64,000 nucleotides of DNA from a virus, in the IMG/VR virus record IMGVR_UViG_3300035696_000013, positions 32,001 through 96,000 of that record; one strand, 5' to 3'. Shown here in pieces: positions 22,515 to 22,875 of the stretch (its first letter is position 1; each line of letters opens with the position of its first letter). The notes under the pieces are model-generated. The model searched no databases. It was not told the origin of the DNA and saw only the letters and a list, made by a program, of their open reading frames with translations. Position numbers and translations under genes: made by a program.

Positions 22515-22875
22515 TACACAAGGCCGGACGATCGCGTAGTCTGTACGATGCGAGGAAAGTCAGGACAACACAGAGCAACGTGCCGGAGAAAGACCGGGCA
22601 TCCAGCAATGGATGACAGCTAGCGCAACAGAAAATAAACCGCCATGGTAATCCGTAAGGATTGCTGATGGTAAGGGTGAAAAGGCGGTGTAAGAGACCAC
22701 CGGGTCGTCAGTAATGACGGTCGCATGGCAAGCCTCACGTGTTGCAACTCTAAATAGGCAGAGAGAACCTGCTCGGTTCGTTATAATCTGCGGGTTAGGG
22801 GCTAGAGCCATCCGGTAACGGCTGGCCAAGATGAATGATCGTCCTTGACAAAATCCTGCTTACAGGTCTTGTGTA
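22515..22875 (+). ncRNA. rnpB: RNase P RNA, bacterial type A
   Basis: GAGGAAAGTC, AGCGCAACAGAAA, AAACCGCC, GGTAAGGGTGAAAAGG, GCTAGAG, AGATGAATGAT, ACAAAATCCTGCTTA; P1 TACACAAGGCC/GGTCTTGTGTA. Confidence 0.95.

What the first reader, a model, noticed from the sequence alone, without database searches (positions are those of the whole stretch)
22515..22875. Phage-encoded RNase P ribozyme inside its own tRNA array
Seen: the conserved regions of type A RNase P RNA are present, with a compensatory change in catalytic helix P4 (GTCAGGA...TCCTGC versus the usual GTCCGGG...CCCGGC). This argues for selection on function. No rnpA is in the window. Known: rnpB is normally a single-copy host gene and is uncommon in viruses. 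Inference: it processes phage tRNAs (e.g. the Val-Val pair separated by 1 nt) and perhaps the non-canonical mimics.
Basis: partly seen in the sequence, partly recalled or inferred. Interest (0 to 1): 0.7.

Follow-up and report, generated by a model that had tools for sequence, protein, structure and literature searches.

The report
Phage-borne full-size RNase P ribozyme gene
A large uncultured phage carries, inside its own tRNA gene cluster, a complete and well-preserved copy of RNase P RNA, the normally cellular ribozyme that trims new tRNAs, and its distant phage relatives keep the gene at the same spot.

Summary
Observation confirmed. Window 22516-22878 (+) matches the whole Rfam bacterial class A RNase P RNA model at 266.9 bits (cut-off 100). 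That is higher than 33 of 40 bacterial rnpB hits in an unlabelled genome sample. The P4 change is real and compensated.

The contig is a phage: an IMG/VR record of 132.6 kb, estimated 41% complete, with baseplate, tape-measure-like, UvsX, endonuclease VII and DNA-hypermodification genes.

All 10 related large phage records searched also have an RNase P RNA hit, 8 above cut-off. In 11 contigs it lies 4-6 kb downstream of the same ribonucleotide reductase gene, inside a tRNA array.

Eleven clade RNAs show strong structure-preserving covariation, including pseudoknots P4 and P6, and form one clade against 75 other class A RNAs. No rnpA was found in this record or in 4 complete relatives.

Best reading: an active, vertically inherited phage ribozyme that matures phage tRNAs using host RnpA. 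Activity is inferred, not shown.

I found no paper on phage RNase P RNA. This scan has already noted similar genes in other phages, including a full-size one.

The parts
22516..22878 (+). RNase P RNA gene (rnpB-like, bacterial class A, 363 nt)
   Evidence: RF00010 at 266.9 bits, full model. 97 nested pairs projected from the model, 91 of them standard.
22557..22565 (+). P4 5' strand (AAG-U-CAGGA) with bulged U at 22560
   Evidence: Pairs 8 of 8 with 22854-22861. P4 is 100% paired in 11 clade RNAs, and 4 of 8 pairs change on both sides (helix 6).
22854..22861 (+). P4 3' strand (UCCUGCUU)
22573..22577 (+). P6 pseudoknot 5' strand (GAGCA in J5/7)
   Evidence: Pairs 5 of 5 with UGCUC at 22770-22774. 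It covaries as GAGCA/UGCUC, GAACA/UGUUC and GGAU/AUCC in relatives (helix 8).
22770..22774 (+). P6 pseudoknot 3' strand (L17 loop UGCUC)
22792..22795 (+). GGGU of the P15/P16 internal loop (the GGU that binds tRNA 3'-CCA in class A RNAs)
   Evidence: Matches the model's CGGGU. Invariant in 11 of 11 clade RNAs (G277 G278 G279 T280).
22683..22724 (+). P13 and P14 hairpins of the specificity domain (L14 = GUAA)
   Evidence: Present only in the window and L104. The other nine clade RNAs lack them. P14 is 100% paired, with 3 pairs changed on both sides between the two (helix 17).
22435..22508 (+). tRNA-Ala(tgc) ending in encoded CCA, 7 nt upstream of the RNase P RNA
   Evidence: The spacer AAAGTTT resembles the other inter-tRNA spacers.
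22888..23010 (+). tRNA-like / Y-RNA-like element directly downstream; candidate 3' punctuation of the ribozyme
   Evidence: Sub-threshold tRNA hit at 22893-22954 (25.9 bits) and YrlA hit (24.1 bits, cut-off 69). Fold z-score -3.96.
21690..23992 (+). tRNA array that holds the ribozyme gene (15 tRNAs called)

Best explanation
This is a functional phage copy of bacterial class A RNase P RNA. It is co-transcribed with the phage tRNAs (inferred). It is released from the polycistronic precursor by the same processing that frees the tRNAs. Its 5' end lies 7 nt after an encoded CCA, and its 3' end lies about 10-15 nt before a tRNA-like element. It would then fold into the normal catalytic and specificity domains. 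It would pair with the host's RnpA protein, because the phage encodes none. It would cut the 5' leaders of the phage's own CCA-bearing pre-tRNAs. That raises or secures RNase P capacity during infection.

Shown here: the family identity, the intact core, the phage location, conserved synteny, structure-preserving evolution and absence of rnpA.

Inferred: transcription, processing, use of host RnpA, catalysis, and the benefit to the phage.
For: (1) The full model matches at 266.9 bits. Only 7 of 40 bacterial rnpB hits in a genome sample score higher; that sample ranges 175.5-307 bits.

(2) Core elements are intact. P4 has 8 of 8 pairs with the bulged U, and P6 has 5 of 5. L9 (GCAA), L14 (GUAA) and L18 (GUAA) are GNRA loops. 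The model's conserved single-stranded blocks are matched: GAGGAAAGUC, ACAGAAA, AAGGGUGAAA, GUAAGAG, GCAA, AAAUAGG, CGGGU, AGAUGAAUG.

(3) The substrates fit the enzyme. 24 of 27 phage tRNAs end in encoded CCA, which matches the GGU loop. 20 of 27 have U at position -1.

(4) Conservation in relatives. All 10 related large phage records have an RF00010 match, 8 over cut-off. All 8 lie among same-strand tRNAs, mostly 4-9 nt from a tRNA on at least one side. In 11 contigs the RNA lies 4-6 kb downstream of the RNR gene, as in the window.

(5) Covariation on 11 distinct RNAs. 89.6% of cells are paired, against 32.5-41.3% when partners are slid. 64 of 110 pairs change on both sides. 0 of 500 shuffles reach any of the five measures. 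The core single-stranded positions are invariant in 11 of 11.

(6) The 11 phage RNAs form one clade (SH-aLRT 97) among 86 class A RNAs. Identities to the window are only 70-80%. This indicates long vertical descent in phages rather than a fresh capture.

(7) No PF00825 match was found in the own record or in 5 relatives, 4 of them rated 100% complete.
Against: There is no direct evidence of transcription, processing or cleavage.

Three highly conserved unpaired model positions deviate. L8 is AGAAAGA instead of a UAAC-type loop. The first base of the P10/P11 bulge is C, not A. ACAGAA is ACAAAA, a change also seen in L102 and L096.

Four of 27 ARAGORN calls do not end in CCA or are odd.

The record is only 41% complete, so an rnpA or another partner could lie off-contig. 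The complete relatives argue against this, but they are distant (45-78% protein identity).

Why a phage needs the RNA when the host has one is unexplained.

The alignment used for covariation was MAFFT with a structure projected from the window. That favours the structure somewhat on 'cells paired'.
Confidence: 0.72

Rival explanations
1. RnpA sponge or regulator. The RNA is kept because it binds and titrates the host RNase P protein, or competes with host M1 RNA. That would re-route or throttle host tRNA maturation. It would not act as the working enzyme for phage tRNAs.
For: The phage encodes no rnpA, so the RNA must compete with host RNA for host protein. A review passage discusses a camelpox RNase P-like RNA that was inactive in vitro and raises a decoy idea (PMC3001073, one passage read).
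Against: A pure decoy would not need the substrate-binding parts, yet those are the best-kept positions. The GGU loop, the J5/15 GCAA, P4 with its bulged U and the S-domain blocks are invariant in 11 of 11. The phage's own tRNAs need the same activity.
Confidence: 0.08
2. Processing enzyme mainly for the non-tRNA structured RNAs of the array (tRNA-like, Y-RNA-like and other elements), with tRNAs left to the host enzyme.
For: A tRNA-like/YrlA-like element directly follows the gene. A TROVE/Ro-like gene is on the same record. Other notes of this scan list several tRNA mimics in the same array (unchecked).
Against: In relatives the RNA is flanked by ordinary tRNAs. TROVE was found in only 1 of 5 relatives searched. 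The GGU/CCA and U(-1) signatures fit canonical tRNAs.
Confidence: 0.08
3. Neutral passenger. A host rnpB was captured together with tRNA genes and is decaying or merely tolerated.
For: Phage tRNA arrays are mosaics and include duplications, such as the 148-nt tandem repeat at 22958-23253.
Against: The clade is monophyletic with 70-80% identity and conserved position. Compensatory changes are abundant. No bacterial or IMG/VR RNA in my sets exceeds about 69% identity over partial lengths. There is no blastn match to E. coli rnpB or to GenBank phages.
Confidence: 0.05
4. Assembly chimera or bacterial contamination of a viral bin.
For: G+C is higher in 20-24 kb (0.48-0.51 against about 0.42).
Against: Structured-RNA genes explain the G+C rise. 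The same RNR to tRNA/RNase P RNA layout recurs in 11 contigs from several different IMG/VR datasets. Phage genes flank the array on both sides: endonuclease VII at 21295-21699 and an HhH protein at 24276-24896 with relatives at the same relative place.
Confidence: 0.02

Closest known systems
Bacterial class A RNase P RNA (Rfam RF00010; E. coli M1 RNA / rnpB type)
   Same: Full model match at 266.9 bits. It has P1-P18 including P13, P14 and P18, the P4 and P6 pseudoknots, GNRA loops L9, L14 and L18, and the GGU loop for CCA.
   Different: It is carried by a phage, not a cell. It is embedded in and punctuated by a tRNA array. There is no rnpA in the genome. It branches in a phage-only clade. P4 carries two A-U pairs where the consensus has C-G and G-C. 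The first of these was found in only 16 species genomes by a strict pattern over the GTDB species set, and in 0 of 28 in a random-like sample.
Reduced RNase P RNAs of the same phage clade (L099-L103, L105, L106, L066, L096; 299-383 nt) and the 188-nt form in L107/L108
   Same: Same genomic position, same catalytic core, and one clade with the window RNA.
   Different: They lack P13/P14. The window and L104 are the only full-size members found. The 188-nt form scores 53 bits, lacks most of the S-domain, lies elsewhere in its genome, and was not placed in the tree.
HDV-like theta ribozymes next to phage tRNA genes (PMC10879173; passages read)
   Same: Phage-encoded ribozymes proposed to make phage tRNA maturation less dependent on host RNases.
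   Different: Those are small self-cleaving ribozymes acting in cis, proposed for 3' trailers. This one is a trans-acting, multiple-turnover 5' endonuclease RNA. That paper treats RNase P as a cellular enzyme.
[quoted passage not shown]
   Same: A virus-encoded RNA resembling RNase P RNA.
   Different: It comes from a eukaryotic virus, and the review reports it as inactive in pre-tRNA processing in vitro. It is not in a tRNA array. The phage RNA passes the full bacterial model and keeps all core elements.

Membership tests
Bacterial class A RNase P RNA (RF00010) | Covariance-model score at or above the curated gathering score over the full model | tested here: met
   266.9 bits against 100, model positions 1-367 of 367.
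Bacterial class A RNase P RNA (RF00010) | P4 pseudoknot with bulged U and conserved AAGUC context (catalytic core; not part of the Rfam nested structure) | tested here: met
   8 of 8 standard pairs in the window. 100% paired in 11 RNAs, with 4 of 8 pairs covarying. U45 and C46 are invariant.
Bacterial class A RNase P RNA (RF00010) | P6 pseudoknot between J5/7 and L17 | tested here: met
   5 of 5 pairs in the window. 72.7% of cells paired in the clade, with 3 covarying pairs. L101 and L066 deviate.
Bacterial class A RNase P RNA (RF00010) | Class A specificity-domain and peripheral helices (P13, P14, P18) with GNRA loops L14 and L18, and L9 | tested here: met
   The helices and the loops GUAA, GUAA and GCAA are present. 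Their docking is not testable here.
Bacterial class A RNase P RNA (RF00010) | GGU in the P15/P16 loop, matched by CCA-bearing substrates | tested here: met
   GGGU at 22792-22795, invariant in 11 of 11. 24 of 27 tRNAs end in encoded CCA.
Bacterial class A RNase P RNA (RF00010) | Endonucleolytic removal of pre-tRNA 5' leaders | not testable with these tools
No RNA run was listed.
Bacterial RNase P holoenzyme (rnpB + rnpA in one genome) | A cognate RnpA (PF00825) gene in the same genome | tested here: not met
   0 matches at E <= 1 in the own record (41% complete) and in 5 relatives, 4 of them rated 100% complete. The control rang in 10 of 14 genomes.
YrlA (Y RNA-like, RF02553), for the neighbouring element 22888-23010 | Score above gathering; T-arm, closed acceptor hairpin, D-arm and a long closing stem; a Ro/TROVE partner | tested here: inconclusive
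   24.1 bits against a cut-off of 69. The T-arm, acceptor hairpin and D-arm align. Long closing stem, z-score -3.96. A TROVE ORF is on the record.

The most novel reading that the evidence does not exclude
A family-level clade of huge phages (215-463 kb where complete) has carried its own catalytic RNase P RNA by vertical descent for a long time, without any protein subunit gene. The gene is written into the tRNA polycistron so that the activity it encodes helps excise it. Within the clade the ribozyme has been naturally pared down. This window holds a full 363-nt class A form, most relatives hold forms of about 300-380 nt without P13/P14, and there may be a 188-nt core. Phage tRNA 5' maturation would then be partly autonomous from host rnpB, for example after host transcription shut-off or against host measures that hit tRNA supply. 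The clade would be a natural series for finding the minimal working RNase P RNA.
Probability: 0.5. Interest if true: 0.8.

Novelty: new member of a known kind. Interest (0 to 1): 0.62.

Why it matters
RNase P RNA is treated as a universal cellular housekeeping ribozyme. Classic work, recalled here and not read, showed that phage T4 tRNAs depend on the host enzyme.

A phage lineage that keeps a complete, selected rnpB inside its tRNA operon extends the list of translation-related functions that large phages bring with them. It also raises a concrete question: does a viral ribozyme work with a foreign protein subunit or alone?

The clade offers a natural series of progressively reduced RNase P RNAs for structure-function work.

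Practically, rnpB is used as a marker of cellular genomes and of completeness (PMC8172020, passages read). Phage copies can mislead such checks and viral/bacterial binning.

Tried and rejected
Expression. No RNA holder was listed for window 22300-23100, and read laying was not used. This says nothing either way.

Close DNA relatives. blastn of the RNA found no match in GenBank phages or in E. coli genomes. The exact P13 pattern found only the L104 contig in IMG/VR.

Donor or host.
- A genome-contig scan for the P4 A-variant gave 16 bacterial MAG loci: 9 Bacteroidota-type, 3 Bdellovibrionales, and one each of Omnitrophota, Hyphomicrobiales, Anaerolineaceae and unclassified.
- These are ordinary rnpB genes. 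None had nearby tRNAs except two in L109, and the best identity was about 69% over 154 nt. They do not group with the phage clade. The variant is therefore not a donor marker.
- The tree puts the phage clade weakly (SH-aLRT 79) next to six IMG/VR RNAs. One of them (L007) is 80% identical to E. coli rnpB. This is too weak to name a donor or host.
- asked for the phyla of two different MAGs but returned the same unlabelled genomes. I used them only as an unlabelled bacterial sample.

P4 tallies by regular expression. One search found both strands in only 22 of 58 IMG/VR loci (20 C-G, 2 G-C, 0 A-U) and in 11 of 16 MAG loci (11 of 11 A-U). Searches used patterns that were too strict and are not used. 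One search gave C in 28 of 28 (1 of 29 had no match; L136 and L157 were dropped because they were chosen for the A).

Other checks.
- CCA-adding enzyme (PF01743): none on the record.
- Promoter and terminator scans were at chance level: 6 against 6.5 expected and 8 against 6.0 expected.
- A YrlA-like element downstream of L104's RNA was not found.

Literature. Searches found no paper describing a phage-encoded RNase P RNA. The library holds only open-access PMC papers and bioRxiv. Supplementary tables of huge-phage papers, which might list Rfam hits, were not seen.

Full report
**What is there**

Rfam's bacterial class A RNase P RNA model (RF00010) matches window 22516-22878 on the + strand. 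The match covers the full 367 positions at 266.9 bits, E 6e-86, against a gathering score of 100.

I projected the model's structure onto the 363-nt RNA and added the two pseudoknots that the model does not encode. This gives 97 nested pairs, 91 of them standard, plus P4 with 8 of 8 standard pairs and P6 with 5 of 5.

The 5' strand AAG-U-CAGGA (22557-22565) pairs with UCCUGCUU (22854-22861). A-U pairs sit at 22562/22857 and 22565/22854, where the consensus has C-G and G-C. The bulged U (22560) is retained.

The single-stranded blocks that the model shows in capitals are matched: GAGGAAAGUC, ACAGAAA, AAGGGUGAAA, GUAAGAG, GCAA, AAAUAGG, CGGGU and AGAUGAAUG. L9, L14 and L18 are GNRA loops.

Three unpaired positions deviate. 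L8 is a purine-rich loop in place of the UAAC type. The first base of the P10/P11 bulge differs. ACAGAA reads ACAAAA.

An unlabelled sample of bacterial genomes gave 40 rnpB hits of 175.5-307 bits. Only 7 exceed the window's score. By this measure the RNA is as canonical as a typical bacterial one.

**It is in a phage**

The window is bases 32001-96000 of an IMG/VR virus record of 132,623 bp, which CheckV estimates as 41% complete.

The window encodes:
- a tape-measure-like protein;
- an amino-acid:DNA transferase/aGPT-type DNA hypermodification enzyme;
- a class II ribonucleotide reductase (RNR);
- a UvsX-like recombinase;
- helicases;
- endonuclease VII directly upstream of the array, and an HNH endonuclease inside a later tRNA cluster.

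The rest of the record encodes a baseplate wedge protein and virion-type proteins.

The window holds 27 tRNA genes in three same-strand clusters. The ribozyme gene lies in the first cluster.

**Relatives**

The RNR protein retrieved 39 IMG/VR loci. I searched the 10 largest related records whole. All 10 have an RF00010 match and 8 are over the cut-off (151-269 bits). Four records are rated 100% complete, at 215-463 kb.

The other two records (L107, L108) have a 188-nt, 53-bit core form located elsewhere in the genome.

In all eight full hits the RNA is on the same strand as surrounding tRNAs. It usually lies 4-9 nt from a tRNA on one or both sides.

A profile search of the fetched flanks found the RNA 4-6 kb downstream of the RNR in 11 of the 39 loci, as in the window. 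The other 28 loci are mostly short contigs or have RNRs at or below 60% identity, and showed none within the DNA held.

Neighbouring proteins are shared in order at 45-78% identity. These are therefore distant relatives from several datasets, which also rules out a chimeric assembly.

**Selection**

On a MAFFT alignment of 11 distinct clade RNAs (70-80% identical to the window), I projected the window's structure.
- 89.6% of 1005 cells are paired, against 32.5-41.3% when the 3' partners are slid by 1-3 columns.
- 64 of 110 pairs have changes on both sides.
- 0 of 500 shuffles reach any of the five measures.
- P4 is paired in every sequence, with four covarying pairs.
- P6 covaries as GAGCA/UGCUC, GAACA/UGUUC and GGAU/AUCC.

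The bulged U, the GGU loop, J5/15, J18/2 and J2/4 are invariant in 11 of 11.

Caveat: the structure was derived from one of the aligned sequences, which inflates 'cells paired' somewhat. The counts of double changes are less affected.

**Descent**

In a quick maximum-likelihood tree of 86 class A RNAs the phage clade is one branch, with SH-aLRT 97. The rows were:
- 11 clade RNAs;
- 35 from IMG/VR contigs picked by an S-domain motif;
- 12 MAG RNAs sharing the P4 A-variant;
- 28 from the unlabelled bacterial sample.

Rows without a near-full profile match and identical rows were dropped.

The window groups with L104. These two alone keep P13/P14, and the other nine lack them. The window therefore carries the least reduced form in its clade.

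The nearest outside group is joined only weakly (SH-aLRT 79). I do not name a donor or host.

**The P4 variant in bacteria**

A strict 26-nt pattern containing the A found 16 species genomes in the GTDB species set. In the 11 of these 16 where both strands could be read, the partner is U. In the unlabelled bacterial sample the position is C in 28 of 28. The change is rare but not unique to phages, and it is always compensated.

**Mechanism (inferred)**

Twenty-four of 27 tRNAs end in an encoded CCA, which matches the retained GGU loop. Twenty of 27 have U at -1, and most spacers read A(A/G)TTT. The 7-nt spacer before the ribozyme is of this type.

The ribozyme starts 7 nt after tRNA-Ala(tgc). 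It is followed within about 10-15 nt by a tRNA-like element. In relatives an ordinary tRNA follows.

The simplest model is a polycistronic precursor in which tRNA 3' processing and RNase P cleavage define the ribozyme's ends.

No rnpA was found in the own record or in five relatives, four of them complete. The control rang in 10 of 14 genomes. The RNA would therefore use host RnpA or act alone. That bacterial RNase P RNAs work with heterologous proteins is established knowledge, which I recall and did not read here.

**Comparison and novelty**

The molecule passes every sequence and structure test for class A RNase P RNA. What is unusual is the carrier and the setting.

Nine literature searches found no description of a phage-encoded RNase P RNA. 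Three papers bear on the question, each read only as passages:
- One paper reports that its megaphage genomes showed only tRNAs and a tmRNA against Rfam (PMC8172020).
- The theta-ribozyme paper treats RNase P as a cellular enzyme (PMC10879173).
- A review mentions a camelpox RNase P-like RNA that was inactive in vitro (PMC3001073, one passage).

Supplements were not available.

Within this scan the phenomenon has been noted repeatedly on other DNA: 179 notes in at least 132 genomes by word search. One follow-up concerned a full-size phage RNase P RNA with P4 GTCGGGG/CCCCGC.

My own data agree that it is widespread. At least 12 of the 58 motif-picked IMG/VR contigs have four or more same-strand tRNAs within 1 kb of the RNA.

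**Verdict**

This is a real, full-size, selected RNase P RNA gene in a large phage. It is a new member of a known RNA family in an undescribed biological setting. Its function as a tRNA 5'-processing ribozyme is likely but untested.

Noticed in passing
window 22888-23010 (+); TROVE ORF at L161:7258-8673 (+) = G000:C1:123258-124673, outside the window: The element right after the ribozyme has a T-arm, a closed acceptor-like hairpin and a D-arm in permuted order, inside a long closing stem. This is the layout of bacterial Y-RNA-like YrlA. The Rfam YrlA hit is 24.1 bits (cut-off 69) and the fold z-score is -3.96. The same phage record encodes a 471-aa TROVE/Ro-like protein (PF05731 at 53 bits; phrog_850, E 3e-46). 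This is a possible phage Ro/Y-RNA pair. TROVE was found in only 1 of 5 relatives.
   Followed up: partly
window 22958-23253: Tandem duplication of 148 nt (97% identity). It copies the 3' half of the Y-RNA-like element together with tRNA-Gly(tcc), giving two identical Gly(tcc) genes at 23015 and 23163.
   Followed up: no
L107:1501-1688 and L108:1501-1688 (records G008 and G006): A 188-nt RNase P RNA core (53 bits, below cut-off) in two related phage records, one rated complete at 215 kb. About 97 model positions of the specificity domain are replaced by 21 nt and P18 is nearly gone. It is not syntenic with the RNR gene.
   Followed up: partly
L002, L006, L015, L026, L029, L030, L047, L050, L052, L055, L057, L058 (IMG/VR contigs): Twelve of 58 viral contigs picked only by an RNase P S-domain motif have the RNA with 4-19 same-strand tRNAs within 1 kb. 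A separate group on contigs of up to 481 kb (L009, L010, L011, L049 and others) has it without adjacent tRNAs. Phage-borne class A RNase P RNAs occur in several lineages.
   Followed up: partly
window 22233-22250 (+): A strong hairpin (7 pairs, 6 G-C) followed by TTTTT lies between tRNA-Asp and tRNA-Cys. It is a possible terminator or processing site that would split the array just upstream of the Cys-Ala-Ala-ribozyme unit. The overall terminator count is at chance level.
   Followed up: no
window 9497-12151 (-): An amino-acid:DNA transferase/aGPT-type gene (PF18724, E 3e-20) next to a PLP-enzyme-like gene. Both are shared at 78% and 66% identity with the closest relative, L060. This suggests hypermodified thymidine in the phage DNA.
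   Followed up: no
(genome search, where = phylum): Asking for the phylum of two MAGs of different named phyla returned the same unlabelled genomes. 23 of 28 of these share the P4 variant GUCCGAA, so the sample may be taxonomically narrow.
   Followed up: no
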